Below, piece by piece: positions 2,938 through 60,687 of a stretch of 64,000 bases of DNA. The stretch covers positions 8,684 through 72,683 of the forward strand of contig CAYPBJ010000007.1 in assembly GCA_964408945.1 (NCBI GenBank). Direction: 5' to 3'. The position numbers were made by a program, and so were the translations under genes. Position 1 is the stretch's first letter; each line of letters opens with the position of its first letter. The notes under the pieces were generated by a model, which was not told where the DNA came from, did no database searches, and worked only from the letters and a program-made list of their open reading frames with translations. Source of the DNA: an uncultured Rhizobium sp. (GTDB lineage: Bacteria > Bacteroidota > Bacteroidia > NS11-12g > UBA955).

Positions 2938-2945
2938 TATATTTG
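2938..2945 (+). promoter_or_regulatory. -7 box TATATTTG, 6 nt upstream of ATG 2952
   Basis: Perfect TAnnTTTG match. Confidence 0.45.
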
Positions 2946-2951
2946 CCGCCA

Positions 2952-3620
2952 ATGAAATCTTTAGGATTTTTGGCGGCTTTTTTTATGCTTATAACTTTGG
3001 TAGTAGGGCAACCAAATAAACTTCCTCCCATAGAAGAATCCCCAAGCGGAGGTAATATTTCGGCTCAAGCAGAATCTCCGGCTCCTTTGCTGCAAATGAA
3101 ATCGGTGCATCCACACATTCAAATAGTCAATCAAGTGAATCCGAGAGGGTATTTTTTCAAACACAAAAGCAAAGGTGTAAACGATTTTGATGCTCAAGCA
3201 ACGCACTTCGAAATGAGAATTTATTATCCTGTGCCGCGCACGTGGAGCGATGCAACCCACGCTCAATTTTTAAAAGACATTAAGAGCGATACCATTTCCA
3301 ACATCGTGTTTAAATTTGGCGCTGACAGTCAGGCTAAGCACATGGCGGCCCTTCAAAATGCCTATAAAAATGTTGAACTCGGCTTTTTAGAATGCGACAG
3401 TCTTTGGGGACGACCAGCGCTGAGTTACACCGTCAAGTGCGAAATTTACAATAACGACATGCTCAAATTGGTCAAGAAAACCGTCATCACCGGTCGCAGA
3501 TACATTGTTTTTTACCAGGGACACATGATTGATTTATGGTGGCACGCCACCCCCGATGAGCACCTCTGGAACGATATTGCCAGGGAACAACTGAAGTTGA
3601 TGTCGGTACTTGGTACCTAG
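2952..3620 (+). CDS. Hypothetical secreted protein
   Basis: ORF-track frame 2943..3620. I prefer ATG 2952 (MKSLGFLAAFFMLITLVVGQ, signal-like) because the -7 box overlaps the TTG at 2943. No domain recognised. The last 5 codons are built from heptad-array units. Confidence 0.6.
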   Translation: MKSLGFLAAFFMLITLVVGQPNKLPPIEESPSGGNISAQAESPAPLLQMKSVHPHIQIVNQVNPRGYFFKHKSKGVNDFDAQATHFEMRIYYPVPRTWSDATHAQFLKDIKSDTISNIVFKFGADSQAKHMAALQNAYKNVELGFLECDSLWGRPALSYTVKCEIYNNDMLKLVKKTVITGRRYIVFYQGHMIDLWWHATPDEHLWNDIAREQLKLMSVLGT

Positions 3621-3700
3621 TCTTTGGTACCTGGTCTATGGTACCCGATCCCCGGAACCTGGTACCCGATCCCCGGAACCCGGAACCCGGAACCCGCTAC
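3603..3700. repeat. Heptanucleotide-register array A (14 units)
   Basis: tcggtac ttggtac ctagtct ttggtac ctggtct atggtac ccgatcc ccggaac ctggtac ccgatcc ccggaac ccggaac ccggaac ccgctac. No phase slip. Contains a 21-nt super-repeat and four GGTACC palindromes. Confidence 0.9.
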
Positions 3701-3732
3701 AAACTTAACTATATCTAGTTTGTTATATAAAT

Positions 3733-6154: not shown

Positions 6155-6155
6155 C

Positions 6156-6190
6156 CAGGTACCTGGTACCTGCTACCTAGTACATAGTAT
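6156..6190. repeat. Heptanucleotide-register array B (5 units)
   Basis: caggtac ctggtac ctgctac ctagtac atagtat. Fills the 35-nt convergent spacer between stops at 6154 and c6190. Confidence 0.8.
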
Positions 6191-22213: not shown

Positions 22214-22216
22214 TAT

Positions 22217-22342
22217 CTGGTACATGGTACATGGTACATGGTAGCAGGTCGAGGGACCAAATACCTGTGACCTGTGACCCGCTACCAACTACCCGCTACC
22301 AACTACCAACTACCAGCTACCAACTACCAACTACCAACTACT
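22217..22342. repeat. Heptanucleotide-register array C (18 units)
   Basis: ctggtac atggtac x2 atggtag caggtcg agggacc aaatacc tgtgacc x2 cgctacc aactacc cgctacc aactacc x2 agctacc aactacc x2 aactact. No phase slip. Fills the convergent spacer. Confidence 0.9.
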
Positions 22343-23162
22343 ATGGAAATTTAGGGTATTTTTGGAAGTCTGGTTTGCGCTTTTCTAAGAATGCGTGTTT
22401 GCCTTCTTGAGCTTCTTCGGTGAGATAATAAAGTAGGGTTGCGTCACCGGCGAGTTCCATGAGTCCATGTTGACCGTCTAATTCAGCATTGAAAGAGCGT
22501 TTGAGCATTCTGATGGCCATTGGACTGCGTTCCATGATGGTGTTGCACCAATCTACGGTTTCATCTTCGAGTTGGGCGAGCGGTACTACTTTATTGACAA
22601 GTCCCATTTTCTCGCATTCGTCTGCTGTGTATTGTCTGCACAAGAACCATATTTCACGGGCTTTCTTTTGTCCAACGTGGCGAGCAAGATAACTGCTTCC
22701 AAATCCGCCGTCAAAACTTCCCACTTTAGGGCCAGTTTGGCCAAATTTAGCATGGTCAGCGGCAATGGTTAGGTCACAAACTACGTGAAGAACATGTCCT
22801 CCGCCAATAGCATACCCATTCACCATGGCAATCACGGGTTTTGGTAGAGATCTGATTTTCTTGTGCAAATCAAGAACGTTTAGACGTGGAATTCCAGAAT
22901 CATCAACGTAACCACCAATGCCTTTTACGTTTTGGTCACCGCCAGAGCAAAATGCCTTGTCTCCAATTCCGGTAAGAATTACCACTGAGATTTGTTGGTT
23001 TTCGCGGCAATGATCCATAGCATCAAGCATATCGGTTACGGTTTGAGGACGAAATGCATTGTAAACTTCGGGACGATTGATGGTTATTTTGGCAATTCCT
23101 TCATGGAATTGAAATAGGATGTCAGAATAGTCTTTGATGGTTTCCCAATTTCTTTGGCTCAT
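22341..23162 (-). CDS. menB: 1,4-dihydroxy-2-naphthoyl-CoA synthase
   Basis: Crotonase fold with a typical MenB N-terminus ([28 protein letters not shown]) and GGDQ/GGG motifs. Confidence 0.9.
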
Positions 23163-27871: not shown

Positions 27872-27903
27872 AAAAAAAGGCTGCCCTTGGGCAGCCTTTT
27901 TTA
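27872..27903. terminator. Bidirectional rho-independent terminator
   Basis: A-run, AGGCTGCC-cttg-GGCAGCCT stem, then T-run, located between convergent genes. Confidence 0.8.
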
Positions 27904-38912: not shown

Positions 38913-38945
38913 AAAAAGGGCCGTCGCAAGACGGCCCTTTTTATT
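38913..38945. terminator. Bidirectional rho-independent terminator
   Basis: A-run, GGGCCGTC-gcaa-GACGGCCC stem, then T-run, between the adhesin gene and rpoD. Confidence 0.85.
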
Positions 38946-52752: not shown

Positions 52753-52762
52753 ATTTCGGAAA

Positions 52763-56620: not shown

Positions 56621-59600
56621 ATGTTGGAGCAACAAGTCTATGTTCCGGTAAACAAGGTACGCATTGTAACGGCGGCTAGTTTATTCGACGGACACGACGC
56701 AGCGATTAACGTTATGCGTAGAATCATCCAGTCAACAGGATGCGAAGTGATTCATTTAGGTCATGATAGAAGCGTTTTGGAAGTGGTAGATACTGCCATC
56801 CAAGAAGATGCAAATGCCATTGCCATGACTAGTTACCAAGGCGGTCATATTGAATACTTTAAGTATATGTATGACTTGCTAAAGGAGCGCGGGGCTTCCC
56901 ACATCAAGATTTTTGGCGGCGGTGGCGGAGTTATCCTTCCTGAAGAAATCAAAGAATTGATGGATTACGGCATCACTCGCATTTACTCGCCAGATGACGG
57001 AAGAGAGATGGGACTTCAAGGCATGATCAACGATTTGGTTCAGAAAAGTGATTTCCCCACCGGTCATAAGCTCAATGGTGAAGTCAAAAAGGTAATAGAT
57101 CGTGACGGAGACTCTATGTCAATTGCAAGAATCATCACGGCGGCTGAAAATTATTCTGAGTTGCATGCATCGGTATTGGCCGAAATGCGCGACAAAGCGG
57201 CAGATATTAAAGTTCCAGTGTTGGGCATAACTGGAACGGGTGGTGCTGGTAAAAGCAGTTTGATTGACGAGGTTGTTCGCAGGTTCTTATTGGATTTTTC
57301 TGATAAGAAAATGGCCATCATTTCAATAGATCCCTCTAAGAGAAAAACAGGTGGAGCTTTGTTAGGAGATAGAATTCGCATGAATTCCATCAATCATCCT
57401 AGGGTATATATGCGCTCAATGGCTACGCGTCAAGCGAATTTGGCCATGAGTTCACACATTGATGATGCCGTTGACATTTTAAAGGTAGCGGGTTATGATT
57501 TAATCATTGTTGAAACCAGCGGTATAGGACAAAGCGATACGCAAATTACTGAGCATTGCGATGTAGCTCTTTACGTGATGACCCCTGAATACGGAGCAGC
57601 AACCCAACTTGAAAAAATTGATATGTTGGATTATGCTGACGTGGTTGCTCTCAATAAATTTGATAAACGCGGTGCATTGGATGCATTGCGTGACGTTCGT
57701 AAGCAGTTCCAACGAAATCATAAATTGTTTGAAGCTGACGTTGATACCATGCCCGTTTTTGGAACCATTGCATCTCAATTCAATGATCCAGGCATGAACA
57801 GTTTGTACCGTTGTTTGATGGATACAATTTCAGCTAAAACCGGTGCTAATATTGGAAGCAACTGGAAGTCAGACAATGAATTGAGTGAAAAAATATTCAT
57901 CATCCCTCCGGCTAGAAATCGTTATCTTTCTGAGATTTCAGAAAACAATAGAGCTTACAACGCCACCGGTAAGGCTCAACAAAAGATTGCTCAACGAATG
58001 TATGCGATCAACGAAACGTTGAAGCAGATTACAGAGAGCGGAACTTCGTCAGATGTTTTAACTGTTGAGTTGAACCGGTTGTACGAACAATTGAACGATC
58101 AATTATCCCCAGAAAACAAGAAACTCATTTCGGATTGGGCAGAAGAGGCTCAAAAGTACCGCAATGAAGATTACATTTTCAAAGTGCGTGACAAGGAATT
58201 GCGCATTAAAACGCATACCGAAAGTTTGAGTCATTCGCAAATTCCAAAAGTTTCTACTCCGAAGTACGAAGCATGGGGAGATATTTTGCATTGGCGTTTG
58301 CAGGAGAATTTGCCGGGTCAATTCCCTTACACAGCTGGAATTTACCCATTCAAACGCGAAGGCGAAGATCCCACGCGAATGTTTGCCGGTGAAGGCAGTC
58401 CCGAAAGAACCAATCGTCGTTTTCACTATGTGAGTCAGGATATGCCCGCTAAACGCTTGAGTACGGCATTTGATTCAGTGACTTTATACGGTAGAAATCC
58501 AGATCTCAGACCAGATATTTACGGTAAAATTGGAAACTCAGGGGTGAGCATTTGTTGTTTGGATGACGCAAAAAAGCTTTACAGTGGATTCAATTTGGCT
58601 GACCCCATGACATCAGTATCGATGACCATTAATGGTCCGGCGCCCATGTTGCTGGGATATTTTATGAATGCTGCCATTGATCAACAATGTGAATTATACA
58701 TCAGAAAAAATGGCTTAGAGTCGGAGATTAATGCTAAAATTGATGCCATTTATGCGGCTAAAGGACTTTCCCGCCCGGTTTACCATGGCGATTTACCTAA
58801 GGGTAATGACGGCTTGGGTTTGATGCTTTTAGGTGTAACTGGTGATCAAGTTCTTTCAGCAGATGTCTACAATGAAATTAAAAATTGGACCTTATCTCAA
58901 GTGAGAGGTACCGTTCAAGCCGATATTTTAAAGGAAGATCAAGCGCAAAATACCTGTATTTTTTCTACTGAATTCGCTTTGCGATTGATGGGAGATGTAC
59001 AAGAATATTTCATTCACAATAAGGTTCGTAATTTTTACTCTGTGAGTATTAGCGGATACCACATCGCTGAAGCGGGAGCGAATCCTATTTCTCAATTGGC
59101 ATTCACTTTGGCTAACGGATTCACTTATGTTGAATATTACTTAAGTCGTGGAATGCACATTGATGATTTTGCACCCAACTTGAGTTTCTTCTTTAGCAAT
59201 GGAGTAGATCCTGAATACGCAGTTATTGGTCGTGTTGCTCGAAGAATTTGGGCCAAAGCCATGAAGAATAAATACGGTGGAAACGCTCGTTCACAGATGT
59301 TGAAATACCACATTCAAACATCGGGAAGAAGTTTGCACGCGCAAGAAATTGACTTTAACGATATCCGTACCACATTACAAGCATTGTATGCAATCTACGA
59401 TAACTGTAATTCTCTGCATACCAATGCTTATGATGAAGCTATCACTACTCCTACAGAAGAAAGCGTTCGTCGTGCAATGGCCATTCAGTTGATTATAAAC
59501 AAGGAATTGGGATTGGCAAAGAATGAGAATCCAATTCAAGGTTCATTTATCATTGAAGAATTGACTGATTTGGTAGAGGAGGCGGTATTGTCAGAATTTG

Positions 59601-60004
59601 ACCGCATCACAGAACGTGGCGGTGTTCTTGGAGCCATGGAGACCATGTATCAACGCGGCAAAATCCAAGAAGAAAGCCTTTATTATGAAACCCTAAAACA
59701 TACGGGTGAATATCCTATCATTGGAGTTAATACATTCTTGAGCAGCAAAGGTTCACCAACAGTTAGACCAGGCGAGGTTATTCGAAGCACTGAGGAAGAA
59801 AAGCAACAGCAAATTGACACCGTACACTTGGTAAAGAGGATGTACGGTGAGAATGCAGAACGCAATTTCAAAGACCTCCAGATAGCGGCTATTCGCAACG
59901 AGAATATGTTTGCTCAAATCATGGAAGCCGCGAAATTCTGCACCCTTGGTCAGCTCACAGAATCCATGTTTGAGGTTGGTGGGCAGTACCGGAGAAATAT
60001 GTGA
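56621..60004 (+). CDS. icmF: Fused isobutyryl-CoA mutase (B12-binding domain, MeaB-like G-protein, mutase barrel)
   Basis: The N-terminal B12 domain has [13 protein letters not shown]. The central P-loop is [13 protein letters not shown], with NKFD. The C-terminal ~550 aa look like a methylmalonyl/isobutyryl-CoA mutase substrate domain. 1127 aa in total. Confidence 0.85.
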
Positions 60005-60200
60005 TTATAGTCCATAGTCTGTAGCCCGAAGCCCGAAGACCAAAGACCAAAGACCAAAGTCCATAGTCGATAGTCGATAGTCGATAGTCGATAGTAAGGG
60101 ACTACAGACAACAGACTTTGGACTGCAGACTACAGACTACAGACTAGTGACCAGAGTCCCGGTACCCGTTACCCGTTACCTGCTACCCGGTAGATGGTAC
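60005..60200. repeat. Heptanucleotide-register array D (28 units, 196 nt)
   Basis: Parses without a phase slip from the base after the icmF stop to the base before the rhodanese stop. The two halves are approximately reverse-complementary (see findings). Confidence 0.95.
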
Positions 60201-60605
60201 CTATTTACATGGTGCGTTTTGCCAAGGACCGGCGTTGCTTACGTCTTTGAAGCCTTTTGATTCAAGCAACTCTTTTGCCTTGCCTGCACGTCCGCCGCTG
60301 CGGCACACTAAAACAATTTTATCATAGCCGCGGAGCGATTCCATTTTGCTTTCAAGTTCGTTGAGGGGGATCAGTGTGGTGCAATCTGCGTGACCGTCGT
60401 TGGTCCATTCTTCGGGGGTGCGAACATCTACAATGATGGTTTTTCCAGTTTTAGTGGTGTCATTAGGATTTGCAGTTTCTGAAATGACTGAAGCGGTGTT
60501 GGAATTTGGGGTTTCTGAGTTTGCAGAATTTGTGGTTGTTGAGCTACAGCTGATGGCGTATAATGAGGAAGCCATCATTAAAAGTGCGAATGCGATTTTT
60601 TTCAT
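60201..60605 (-). CDS. Rhodanese-domain lipoprotein
   Basis: Lipoprotein signal SLYAISC. Active-site loop CRSGGRAGKA. ATG c60605 preferred over c60620. Confidence 0.8.
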   Translation of the reverse strand: MKKIAFALLMMASSLYAISCSSTTTNSANSETPNSNTASVISETANPNDTTKTGKTIIVDVRTPEEWTNDGHADCTTLIPLNELESKMESLRGYDKIVLVCRSGGRAGKAKELLESKGFKDVSNAGPWQNAPCK

Positions 60606-60687
60606 AATGGCGAAGTTCATCTTTTTTTTGTGGATTTGCGGTGACTAAAATCACTTAACAATATAATTAGTCGCAGGTGTGGCCACC

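What the first reader, a model, noticed from the sequence alone, without database searches (positions are those of the whole stretch)
60005..60200. 28 phased heptanucleotide units fill the icmF/rhodanese convergent spacer exactly; flagship of a four-member STRR-like array family
The spacer runs from the base after the icmF stop (TGA 60002-60004) to the base before the rhodanese stop (c60201-60203). It parses with no register slip into 28 x 7 nt: ttatagt ccatagt ctgtagc ccgaagc ccgaaga ccaaaga ccaaaga ccaaagt ccatagt cgatagt x4 aagggac tacagac aacagac tttggac tgcagac tacagac x2 tagtgac cagagtc ccggtac ccgttac x2 ctgctac ccggtag atggtac. The unit sequence drifts in blocks, as if by local slippage, but the 7-nt phase is kept. 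The left (..AGTC..) and right (..GACT..) halves are approximate reverse complements. TAGTCTGTAG (60015-60024) is exactly complementary to CTACAGACTA (60137-60146, and also 60130-60139). CCAAAGTC (60054-60061) is exactly complementary to GACTTTGG (60114-60121). The (cgatagt)n and (tacagac)n runs pair at 5 of every 7 positions, which would give a long hairpin of 5-bp helices broken by 2x2 internal loops. Identical units recur in the other arrays: ctggtac in arrays A, B and C; atggtac in A, C and D; ctgctac in B and D. This is therefore a dispersed family rather than a single microsatellite. The window has 11 convergent gene junctions. Every convergent spacer longer than about 30 nt holds either a classical GC hairpin plus T-run (27872-27903, 38913-38945) or one of these arrays (three cases). 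The remaining junctions overlap or are 10 nt or shorter. That distribution suggests a terminator or 3'-end stabiliser role. The nearest precedent I know is the STRR heptanucleotide repeats of heterocystous cyanobacteria (as I recall, CCCCAGT, TTGGTCA, CAACAGT; function unknown). I am not aware of a description in Bacteroidota. The cgaUAGU x4 run also gives UAG-N4-UAG-N4-UAG. That is the spacing bound by the ring-shaped protein HutP in Bacillus. A periodic RNA- or DNA-binding oligomer is therefore an alternative hypothesis.
Basis: partly seen in the sequence, partly recalled or inferred. Interest (0 to 1): 0.8.

Follow-up and report, generated by a model that had tools for sequence, protein, structure and literature searches.

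The report
Hypervariable 7-base repeat arrays between genes
The spacer between two tail-to-tail genes is filled by a fast-changing array of 7-base repeats, a known kind of bacterial repeat that has multiplied in one uncultured Bacteroidia lineage; here it sits where relatives carry an ordinary transcription terminator, so it may do that job, but this is untested.

Summary
Window 60005-60200 is 28 x 7 nt, exactly filling the icmF/rhodanese convergent spacer. It is one of four heptanucleotide arrays in the window.

All four arrays differ by whole 7-nt units between assemblies whose flanking proteins are identical, which points to replication slippage.

The rhodanese/icmF junction carries an array in every relative down to 73% rhodanese identity (19-59 units, with the unit sequences turning over). 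More distant syntenic relatives have a canonical bidirectional intrinsic terminator or a spacer under 10 nt. No array spacer holds a canonical terminator.

All junction variants fold far better than shuffles (z -3 to -13), because blocks are arranged as inverted complements.

Arrays are about 12 times denser in this clade than in other Bacteroidota. They also appear de novo at junctions that had no terminator, and in 21-nt steps inside a protein linker.

Heptamer repeats next to stop codons, with inverted pairs and 7-nt indels, are already described in Xanthomonas, Nostoc, Beggiatoaceae and a few Bacteroidetes.

Verdict: a new member of a known kind. It is generated by slippage and plausibly serves as a surrogate 3'-end hairpin or terminator. 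A neutral origin is not excluded.

The parts
60005..60200 (.). Array D: a compound heptanucleotide array of 28 units that fills the icmF/rhodanese convergent spacer
   Evidence: Folding: RNA MFE -61.1 kcal/mol (z -4.2) on the + strand and -85.5 (z -6.9) on the - strand. DNA fold z -3.5. No terminator-like site.
60005..60095 (+). icmF-proximal arm: 13 units (TTATAGT, CCATAGT, CTGTAGC, CCGAAGC, CCGAAGA, CCAAAGA x2, CCAAAGT, CCATAGT, CGATAGT x4)
   Evidence: Period 7 with 0% indels. Copy number of the CCAAAGA, CCATAGT and CGATAGT units differs between strains.
60096..60100 (.). Apex of the dyad (AAGGG), flanked by TAGT/ACTA
   Evidence: MFE and centroid structures. Read directly from the sequence.
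60101..60151 (+). Distal arm: GACTACA-type units (TACAGAC, AACAGAC, TTTGGAC, TGCAGAC, TACAGAC x2, TAGTGAC). It is the imperfect reverse complement of the left arm.
   Evidence: Exact 10-nt and 8-nt complementarities confirmed. A long outer stem forms in the - strand fold.
60152..60200 (-). Rhodanese-proximal block. Read in the rhodanese sense it is GTACCAT CTACCGG GTAGCAG GTAACGG GTAACGG GTACCGG GACTCTG, that is GGTA-type units with G3 tracts at 7-nt spacing.
   Evidence: A relaxed G4 motif lies at 60158-60188 on the - strand. The block expands to (GGGTASC) x at least 10 in strain L226.
56621..60004 (+). icmF-type fused isobutyryl-CoA mutase gene. Its stop codon TGA abuts the array.
   Evidence: Pfam B12-binding, MeaB and MM_CoA_mutase. 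ORF list.
60201..60620 (-). Rhodanese-domain gene. Its stop codon TAG abuts the array.
   Evidence: Pfam Rhodanese. ORF list. In strain L227 array variation removes this stop, giving a 146-aa ORF.
3605..3702 (+). Array A. It lies in a co-directional spacer and starts inside the last codons of ORF 2943-3620. Units are GGTACNN followed by CCCGGAA/CCCGATC.
   Evidence: Strain lengths are 104, 97 and 90 nt. No excess folding. The only strict G4 motif in the window lies at 3665-3695 on the - strand.
6155..6189 (.). Array B: a convergent spacer of 5 units of GGTACCT/GCTACCT type
   Evidence: Strain lengths are 41 and 34 nt between fixed anchors.
22214..22340 (.). Array C: the convergent spacer downstream of menB. 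In the window's + orientation the architecture is (GGTACAT)n, then GGTCGAGGGACC, then (CTACCAA)n.
   Evidence: Strain variants run from 51 to 141 nt and keep the same architecture. It beats unit-order and phase-column shuffles, z -2.2 to -5.1.
27872..27902 (.). Comparator, not part of the arrays: a canonical bidirectional intrinsic terminator in an array-free convergent spacer
   Evidence: AAAAAAAGGCTGCCCTTGGGCAGCCTTTTTT
38913..38942 (.). Comparator, not part of the arrays: a canonical bidirectional intrinsic terminator in an array-free convergent spacer
   Evidence: AAAAAGGGCCGTCGCAAGACGGCCCTTTTT

Best explanation
Array D is a compound heptanucleotide simple-sequence repeat of the STRR/LSSR kind.

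**Shown**
- It is built and continually remodelled by gain and loss of whole 7-nt units, the signature of replication slippage.
- It is one of many such arrays in a single uncultured Bacteroidia clade. There they survive almost only in 3'-end spacers, above all between convergent genes. Inside one protein linker they occur only in frame-preserving 21-nt steps.
- Its blocks are laid out as inverted complements, so a single strand of either polarity can fold into a long imperfect hairpin.
- In this clade it occupies the position where syntenic sister lineages have a canonical bidirectional intrinsic terminator, and no canonical terminator remains.

**Inferred**
- The array is transcribed as the 3' untranslated tail of both genes.
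- Its hairpin acts as a surrogate 3'-end structure. It would impede read-through into the opposing gene and protect the mRNA 3' end from exonucleases, much as REP hairpins do in E. coli.
- Only the dyad-symmetric core would matter. Unit sequence and copy number would drift freely.
For: **Slippage.** Spacer D is 161, 182, 189, 196 or 252 nt in contigs whose rhodanese is 100% identical. Arrays A, B and C also vary by whole units.

**Persistence with turnover.** Every relative with rhodanese identity of 73% or more has an array at this junction: L225-L232 and L005, with about 19 to 59 units and different unit sequences. The parC 3' array likewise persists in a second species with different units.

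**Replacement.**
- Syntenic relatives with 60% identity or less have A-run/GC-hairpin/T-run terminators or spacers under 10 nt.
- My scan finds a bidirectional terminator in 13 of 14 array-free convergent spacers.
- It finds none in 17 of 19 array spacers. The two hits are a weak one in array B and a hairpin plus T-rich tail built from the array's own units in L231.

**Structure.**
- All ten variants of junction D fold better than dinucleotide shuffles on both strands, z -3.1 to -12.8. This is similar to the canonical terminators, which score z -2.8 to -9.1.
- Arrays C and D, and the two L005 arrays, beat unit-order and phase-preserving column shuffles on at least one strand.
- In L005 and L231 the giant hairpin is followed, in the rhodanese sense, by heptamer-phased U-rich units (AGCTTTT AGCTTTT GACTTTTT).

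**Position.**
- Four of five classifiable intergenic array loci in the clade are convergent, against 19% of junctions in the background sample.
- None of 13 arrays in 1.79 Mb of other Bacteroidota is coding.

**Precedent.** In Xanthomonas, transcripts start or stop at G4-forming heptamer repeats more often than at non-G4 control repeats (PMC4692102).
Against: - No array has the U-tract that canonical intrinsic termination requires.
- Arrays arise where no terminator existed. The epimerase/231-aa junction is 10 nt in the window and 213 nt of array in L005. The menB junction is 1-22 nt, or a plain 120-nt spacer, in outgroups.
- Arms are unequal, and large blocks have no partner: (GACAGCC) x about 25 in L005 and (ACTATSG) x 26 in L228.
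- Arrays A and B show no excess folding.
- Same-locus arms do not pair systematically better than cross-locus arms: -44.9 against -39.6 kcal/mol, sd 18.7. Hairpin potential may therefore be a generic result of a G/T-rich block followed by a C/A-rich block. Gene-sense GC skew just after the stop is positive at 14 of 18 gene ends.
- The same units occur inside a coding linker, which shows a genome-wide mutational process.
- There are no transcript data.
- Copy numbers come from short-read metagenome assemblies, which often break at the arrays.
Confidence: 0.45

Rival explanations
1. Neutral or selfish by-product. A lineage-specific tendency to slip on 7-nt units seeds arrays near stop codons. 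They persist only where nothing is disrupted, which means 3' spacers and disordered linkers in triplets of units. Hairpin potential is incidental: two gene-sense-oriented G/T-rich arrays meet head-on, or the arms of a former terminator expanded. Termination is left to Rho or to polymerase collision.
For: - De novo gain at junctions with spacers of 22 nt or less.
- A coding array of the same CTACC unit family that varies in 21-nt steps.
- Unequal arms and large unpaired blocks.
- Cross-locus arms pair about as well as same-locus arms.
- Arrays A and B have no excess structure.
- Heptamer SSRs are common in unrelated contigs: at least 120 GGTA-phased arrays in IMG/VR.
- Sense-strand G excess after stop codons.
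Against: - An array is present at the rhodanese/icmF junction in all five species-level lineages of the clade despite complete unit turnover.
- Arrays and canonical terminators are mutually exclusive.
- Dyad symmetry survives the turnover: TTTGGTC against AAGGACC in L005, ATAGTC against GACTA in the window.
- Bacterial deletion bias should erode 200-400 nt of useless DNA. This point rests on established knowledge and was not tested here.
Confidence: 0.38
2. G-quadruplex element. Blocks with G3 tracts every 7 nt on the gene-sense strand just after the stop codon form DNA or RNA quadruplexes that modulate 3'-end formation, as proposed for GGGNATC repeats in Xanthomonas and Nostoc.
For: - The only strict G4 motif in the window is in array A (3665-3695, - strand). 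A relaxed one lies in D (60158-60188, - strand).
- Strain and species variants carry long runs: (GGGTAGC/GGGTACC) x at least 10 in L226, (GGGGATC)n in L099 and (GGGTTAC)n after parC in L233.
- Published precedent (PMC4692102).
Against: Most units have no G3 tract, including ATAGTCN, GACTACA, GGTAGTT, ACCAACT, GACAGCC and TTTGGTC. The window copy of D has only four G3 tracts, with an 11-nt loop. In array A the G-rich strand is antisense to the flanking genes.
Confidence: 0.07
3. Periodic binding array for an oligomeric RNA- or DNA-binding protein (HutP-like, UAG-N4 spacing).
For: (CGAUAGU)4 gives UAG every 7 nt. A hutU (urocanase) gene lies 2.6 kb away, which may be coincidence.
Against: - Unit sequences differ between arrays, strains and species. 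The orthologous arrays in L005 and L231 contain no TAG-bearing units.
- Copy number ranges from 3 to 26.
- To my knowledge HutP is restricted to Bacillus-type hut operons. No HutP search of this genome was possible.
Confidence: 0.04
4. Contingency (phase-variation) locus: changes in unit number switch expression of a flanking gene.
For: Hypervariable copy number. In L227 the array variant removes the rhodanese stop and extends the ORF to 146 aa.
Against: The arrays lie downstream of stop codons, not in promoters or 5' coding regions. The flanking genes are housekeeping metabolic genes (icmF, menB, parC). Unit indels leave both ORFs intact in all other variants.
Confidence: 0.03

Closest known systems
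Heptameric G-rich SSRs (GGGAATC / GGGGAYT) of Xanthomonas and Nostoc (Rehm et al. 2015, PMC4692102)
   Same: - Tandem 7-nt units, dispersed and mostly intergenic.
- Concentrated within 50 bp of stop codons with the G-rich strand on the coding strand.
- 70-75 inverted pairs per Xanthomonas genome that could form stem-loops.
- Variable copy number.
- Transcripts start or stop at the G4-forming repeats more often than at control repeats.
- GGGGATC and GGGTAGC-type blocks occur here too.
   Different: - There, one consensus unit per genome with a preference for 4 units. Here, many unit types drift in blocks and arrays reach 59 units.
- There, only 11-16% lie between convergent ORFs. Here, the majority do.
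- Most units here cannot form G4.
STRR (short tandemly repeated repetitive) heptanucleotides of heterocystous cyanobacteria
   Same: Dispersed intergenic tandem heptamers, several unit families per genome, lineage-specific abundance. The description is from my own recollection. PMC4692102 cites three tandem heptanucleotides in Calothrix PCC 7601.
   Different: The phylum differs. No shared ancestry is shown.
TAACTGA and associated heptamer repeats in Beggiatoaceae, Cyanobacteria and five Bacteroidetes (MacGregor 2015, PMC4679880)
   Same: - Heptamer direct repeats occur in Bacteroidetes intergenic regions: Gramella forsetii and Aequorivita sublithincola, where long arrays are mixed with other heptamers.
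- They are absent at the orthologous spacers of close relatives.
- Indels come in 7-nt increments between strains.
   Different: TAACTGA itself is not repeated here. In Beggiatoaceae the repeats sit just upstream of start codons, which suggests translational control, whereas here they sit after stop codons.
Long simple sequence repeats (LSSR) of prokaryotes (Mrazek et al. 2007, as summarised in PMC4679880 and PMC4692102)
   Same: Heptanucleotide units are the most abundant class among 5-11-nt repeats. Distribution is sporadic and lineage-specific. Origin is attributed to polymerase slippage.
   Different: That survey did not describe dyad-symmetric compound arrays or the replacement of terminators.
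Bidirectional intrinsic (Rho-independent) terminators at convergent junctions
   Same: Same genomic position. Relatives carry one at the orthologous junction. Both are dyad-symmetric, with folding z-scores in the same range.
   Different: The arrays have no short GC-rich stem and no flanking A-run or T-run. They are 5-10 times longer, imperfectly paired and hypervariable.
REP/BIME elements of enterobacteria
   Same: Dispersed imperfect palindromes in 3' intergenic regions, often between convergent genes. They can stabilise upstream mRNA. This is from my own knowledge.
   Different: REPs share a conserved consensus of about 35 nt and are mobilised by a RAYT transposase. Here there is no conserved element, only a 7-nt period. 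No RAYT gene was looked for.

Membership tests
Heptanucleotide SSR / LSSR (STRR-like arrays) | Head-to-tail tandem copies of a 7-nt unit, well beyond chance | tested here: met
   TRF finds period 7 with 0% indels. Only lags 7 and 14 exceed threshold anywhere in the 64 kb.
Heptanucleotide SSR / LSSR (STRR-like arrays) | Copy number varies between close strains by whole units (slippage) | tested here: met
   Array D is 161/182/189/196/252 nt, A is 104/97/90, B is 41/34 and C is 51-141, all next to identical flanking proteins. Caveat: these are short-read assemblies.
Heptanucleotide SSR / LSSR (STRR-like arrays) | Dispersed at many loci, predominantly non-coding, abundance specific to a lineage | tested here: met
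   - Four loci in 64 kb, with further arrays in L001 and L005.
- Only 13 arrays in 1.79 Mb of other Bacteroidota, all intergenic.
- None in about 110 kb of menB-linked outgroup loci.
   No tandem dimer of any of them in the window, and no rotation of them inside the arrays.
G4-forming heptamer repeats (GGGNATC type) | At least four G3 tracts at 7-nt spacing | tested here: inconclusive
Intrinsic (Rho-independent) terminator | Stable stem-loop in the transcript | tested here: met
   MFE -54 to -85 kcal/mol, z -3.5 to -6.9.
Intrinsic (Rho-independent) terminator | Short GC-rich stem followed immediately by a U-tract | tested here: not met
   No terminator-like site in 60005-60200. The scan detects 13 of 14 control terminators.
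Intrinsic (Rho-independent) terminator | Transcripts end there | not testable with these tools
   No transcriptome data are available.
REP/BIME-type extragenic palindromes | Conserved consensus sequence of about 35 nt shared by all copies | tested here: not met
   Arrays share only 7-nt units. Units turn over completely between species.
HutP-type binding site | Three or more UAG triplets separated by 4 nt | tested here: met
   (CGAUAGU)4 at 60068-60095. This follows trivially from any TAG-containing heptamer.
HutP-type binding site | Motif conserved at orthologous sites, with the cognate protein present | tested here: not met
   The orthologous arrays in L005 and L231 lack TAG-bearing units. 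Presence of a HutP gene was not tested, because no whole genome was available.
Phase-variable contingency SSR | Repeat lies in a promoter or reading frame, so that unit changes switch expression | tested here: not met
   All four window arrays lie downstream of stop codons. There is one exception among strains, L227.

The most novel reading that the evidence does not exclude
In this Bacteroidia clade, slippage-maintained heptamer arrays have become a distinct class of transcription boundary. It would be a self-renewing, U-tract-less, dyad-symmetric terminator or insulator that has displaced canonical bidirectional terminators at convergent junctions. It would stay functional through constant sequence turnover because only the 7-nt-phased inverted-block architecture is selected. 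This would finally give STRR-like heptamer repeats a function.
Probability: 0.2. Interest if true: 0.65.

Novelty: new member of a known kind. Interest (0 to 1): 0.4.

Why it matters
Heptanucleotide repeats (STRR, LSSR) have been known since about 1990 and still have no agreed function.

This locus offers a clean natural comparison. The same syntenic convergent junction carries a textbook bidirectional terminator in some lineages. In a sister clade it carries a hypervariable, dyad-symmetric heptamer array with no terminator, and the array persists through complete turnover of its unit sequence. That makes the question of whether these repeats act as 3'-end or terminator structures directly testable with Term-seq or reporter constructs.

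Practically, the arrays are strain-level markers. They also break short-read assemblies, and they can alter gene ends and protein linkers.

Tried and rejected
- **Rfam at gathering thresholds.** The only match in the window is a tRNA at 2776-2848. Nothing matches at the arrays.
- **Restriction-modification idea.** The idea was that GGTACC is avoided elsewhere and tolerated in arrays. Rejected: 7 sites outside the arrays against 9 expected.
- **Arm co-evolution test.** I compared duplex energy of same-locus and cross-locus arms. The result is inconclusive: -44.9 against -39.6 kcal/mol, sd 18.7. The window's C and D arms are locus-specific (-41 and -32 against -13), but G/T-rich arms pair promiscuously through G-U.
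- **Gene-sense polarity.** GC skew is positive at 14 of 18 gene ends, but these are not independent, and only 4 of 7 are positive in the window. This is suggestive only.
- **Orthologous menB junction (array C).** MenB is too conserved to mark the clade. Relatives at 89-95% identity are outgroups with different or short spacers and no arrays. The terminator-replacement pattern could therefore be tested only at the rhodanese/icmF junction. At the parC junction I could only show that the array is present in a second clade species (L233) and absent from a distant relative (L239); I did not examine what L239 has there.
- **Technical notes.** The first folding script timed out. The first terminator scanner missed bidirectional terminators because stems ran into the A/T runs; it was fixed.
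- **Covariation analysis.** RNAalifold-type analysis was not attempted, because repeat arrays cannot be aligned unambiguously.
- **Assembly artefact.** Rejected as a full explanation. The arrays recur in independent NCBI, ENA and JGI assemblies with consistent architecture.
Full report
**Observation**

Window 60005-60200 reads exactly as transcribed and is 196 nt = 28 x 7. It lies between the TGA stop of a 1127-aa ORF and the TAG stop of a 139-aa ORF.
- The 1127-aa ORF (56621-60004, +) has B12-binding, MeaB GTPase and methylmalonyl-CoA-mutase domains, which is the IcmF architecture.
- The 139-aa ORF (60201-60620, -) is a rhodanese-domain protein.

Tandem Repeats Finder reports period-7 blocks with no indels. 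In a scan of lags 1-15, only lags 7 and 14 reach 0.66 identity in 42-nt windows anywhere in the 64 kb. They do so at four loci only:
- A, 3605-3702
- B, 6155-6189
- C, 22214-22340
- D, 60005-60200

The quoted exact complementarities and the shared units are correct. The junction census is also correct. There are 11 convergent junctions. Three hold arrays, two hold textbook A-run/GC-hairpin/T-run terminators, and the rest overlap or are 10 nt or shorter. Array A sits in a co-directional spacer. Rfam finds nothing at the arrays.

**Organism**

The flanking genes point to an uncultured member of the Bacteroidota.
- All close IcmF relatives are Bacteroidota.
- The best hit is a 'Bacteroidia bacterium' MAG with 96% amino-acid identity (L005).
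- A neighbouring gene has a T9SS Por_Secre_tail domain.

**The arrays are hypervariable in whole units**

These comparisons are between contigs from independent NCBI, ENA and JGI assemblies that encode 100%-identical flanking proteins.

| Array | Lengths seen (nt) |
|---|---|
| D (stop to stop) | 161, 182, 189, 196, 252 |
| A (between fixed anchors) | 104, 97, 90 |
| B (between fixed anchors) | 41, 34 |
| C (stop to stop) | 51 to 141 |

All differences are gains, losses or substitutions of whole heptamers within blocks. Several contigs end in the arrays, and several scaffolds have N-gaps there (L003, L004, L096, L101, L103, L233). This fits population heterogeneity. It also means that copy numbers from short-read assemblies need caution.

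**Evolution of the junction**

The rhodanese-to-icmF convergent arrangement is syntenic in more than 20 fetched loci.

| Rhodanese identity to window | Loci | What fills the spacer |
|---|---|---|
| 99-100% | window, L001, L002, L225-L227 | array, 23-36 units |
| 91% | L228 | array, 59 units |
| 81% | L229, L230 | array, 19-23 units |
| 73-74% | L231, L232, L005 | array, about 21 and 47 units |
| 60% or less | L234-L241, L244, L247, L006 | A-run/GC-hairpin/T-run terminator |
| about 50% | L242, L243, L246 | spacer under 10 nt |

The array data are, and the terminator data. L020, a syntenically unrelated convergent junction downstream of icmF, also carries a canonical bidirectional terminator.

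The array units turn over with divergence. The window has ATAGTCN, GACTACA and GGTASNN units. L005 has TTTGGTC, GACAGCC and AAGGACC units.

A terminator scan validated on controls finds bidirectional terminators in 13 of 14 array-free convergent spacers. It finds none in 17 of 19 array spacers. The two hits are a weak one in B and, in L231, a hairpin plus T-rich tail built from the array's own units.

A second junction behaves similarly. The parC 3' end, just beyond the window, carries a 34-unit array in this species and (GGGTTAC/GGGCTTC) x 11 in the 80% species. A distant relative has no array there.

**Structure**

Array D folds at -61.1 kcal/mol on the + strand (z -4.2) and -85.5 on the - strand (z -6.9). 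As DNA the z-score is -3.5.

All ten variants of this junction beat dinucleotide shuffles on both strands, z -3.1 to -12.8. Canonical terminators score z -2.8 to -9.1.

- C, D and the two L005 arrays still beat the controls on at least one strand, z -2.1 to -7.3.
- A (co-directional spacer) and B (35 nt) do not.

The architecture is a 5' block, a short apex and a 3' block of roughly complementary units. In the window the arms pair through TAGTC/GACTA. In array C they pair through GGTA/TACC, and in L005 through GGTC/GACC.

The arms are unequal, and some very long blocks have no partner. Same-locus arms do not pair systematically better than cross-locus arms. Part of the hairpin potential may therefore follow simply from a G/T-rich block meeting a C/A-rich one. 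Gene-sense GC skew just after the stop is positive at 14 of 18 gene ends, which are not independent.

**The process is genome-wide and lineage-specific**
- Density is about 1 array per 12 kb in the clade: window, L005 and the extra part of L001.
- It is 13 arrays in 1.79 Mb of other Bacteroidota loci. All 13 are intergenic, with convergent spacers about threefold enriched per nucleotide.
- There are none in about 110 kb of menB-linked outgroup loci.
- Arrays also arise de novo. The epimerase/231-aa junction is 10 nt in the window and 213 nt of array in L005.
- Just beyond the window, a 309-aa protein has a PLPPTQD-repeat linker encoded by CTACC-type heptamers. Its length is 309, 302 or 288 aa between strains, which is steps of 21 nt or three units. 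Slippage evidently acts everywhere, and selection decides where its products survive.

**Interpretation**

That the arrays are slippage-generated heptanucleotide SSRs is well supported.

What they do is inferred. I favour, at about 0.45, that the dyad-symmetric core serves as a surrogate 3'-end hairpin or transcription barrier between the convergent genes. The reasons are:
- the array replaces, and is mutually exclusive with, a canonical bidirectional terminator at a conserved junction;
- it persists through complete sequence turnover;
- it keeps terminator-like folding z-scores.

The main rival, at about 0.38, is a neutral or selfish by-product tolerated at 3' ends. That view is supported by:
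- de novo gains at junctions that had no terminator;
- the coding array;
- unequal arms;
- the absence of any U-tract.

A G-quadruplex role fits only some blocks. A HutP-like periodic binder is contradicted by unit turnover. Phase variation does not fit a position after the stop codon.

**Comparison with what is known**

Heptamer SSRs are a described class.
- Mrazek's survey found 7-nt units to be the commonest long SSR class (as summarised in PMC4679880 and PMC4692102).
- MacGregor 2015 reported heptamer arrays in five Bacteroidetes, indels in 7-nt steps, and absence at orthologous spacers of relatives.
- Rehm 2015 reported, for Xanthomonas and Nostoc, proximity to stop codons on the coding strand, 70-75 inverted pairs per Xanthomonas genome, and transcripts that start or stop at the G4-forming repeats more often than at control repeats.
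- Geobacter metallireducens has 49 GGGACCG x 4 elements.

The finding is therefore a new member of a known kind. Its added value is the natural experiment of terminator against array at one syntenic junction, and the conservation of dyad symmetry despite unit turnover.

Noticed in passing
L001:4817-5746 (+), about 4-5 kb beyond the window's right end; ortholog at L005:18386-19324 (-): A 309-aa protein between lptE and secG has a PLPPTQD-repeat linker encoded by CTACC-type heptamers (lag-7 identity 0.60, lag-21 identity 0.78). Its length is 309, 302 or 288 aa in different strains, which is steps of 21 nt or three units. L005 uses TCACCGA/CCACCGA units at the same place.
   Followed up: partly
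L001:1-236 and L226:1-243 (3' end of a parC/gyrA-like gene, beyond the window's right end); L233:150-274: A 34-unit heptamer array lies downstream of parC. Its outer units are perfect reverse complements (TAGCTGG ... CCAGCTA). The 80%-identity species has (GGGTTAC/GGGCTTC) x 11 there, and a distant relative (L239) has no array. Contigs end inside the array.
   Followed up: partly
window 52753-52762 versus L005:5927-6139: The epimerase/231-aa convergent junction is a 10-nt spacer in the window species, and about 20 nt in L237. In L005 it is a 213-nt heptamer array, a clear lineage-specific gain.
   Followed up: yes
L227:7153-7590: In one strain the rhodanese ORF is 146 aa instead of 139 aa, because the array variant removes the usual stop codon and the frame runs six codons into the array.
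   Followed up: no
L005:13385-13410 and L231:1490-1517 (distal end of the array in the rhodanese sense): In the L005/L231 lineage the giant array hairpin is followed by heptamer-phased T-rich units (AGCTTTT AGCTTTT GACTTTTT). This is a terminator-like hairpin plus U-tract built entirely from repeat units. The window's array has no such tail.
   Followed up: partly
window 3665-3695 (- strand) and 60158-60188 (- strand): The only strict G-quadruplex motif (G3+ with loops of 7 nt or less, x4) in the whole 64-kb window lies inside array A. A relaxed motif (loop of 12 nt or less) lies in the rhodanese-proximal block of array D.
   Followed up: partly
L022:11845-12071, L030:13454-13728, L031:13418-13791, L032:6504-6683: Several other loci (L030 is a Flavobacterium, L031 a Dokdonia, L032 an uncultured Flavobacteriaceae MAG, and L022 a MAG labelled Chitinophaga pinensis) carry two to four tandem copies of a structured repeat of about 75 nt immediately downstream of icmF (GCAGAGAACCACTTTTTGC.TCGCAAAAAGTG.GTGAATCGCTTATCCCGCTTT..GCGGGAT). 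It is unrelated to the heptamer arrays.
   Followed up: no
L245:748-790: A distant relative (rhodanese 50% identical) has a four-unit heptamer seed (TTGTTAA TTGTCAA TGGTTAA TGGTCAA) right after the rhodanese stop, followed by an ordinary hairpin. This is possibly how such arrays begin.
   Followed up: no
window 22341-23162 (-): The 'enoyl-CoA hydratase' gene next to array C is MenB (1,4-dihydroxy-2-naphthoyl-CoA synthase), according to source annotations of homologues at 88-93% identity. Its TAG stop codon is itself the first TAG of the (TAGTTGG)n array.
   Followed up: partly
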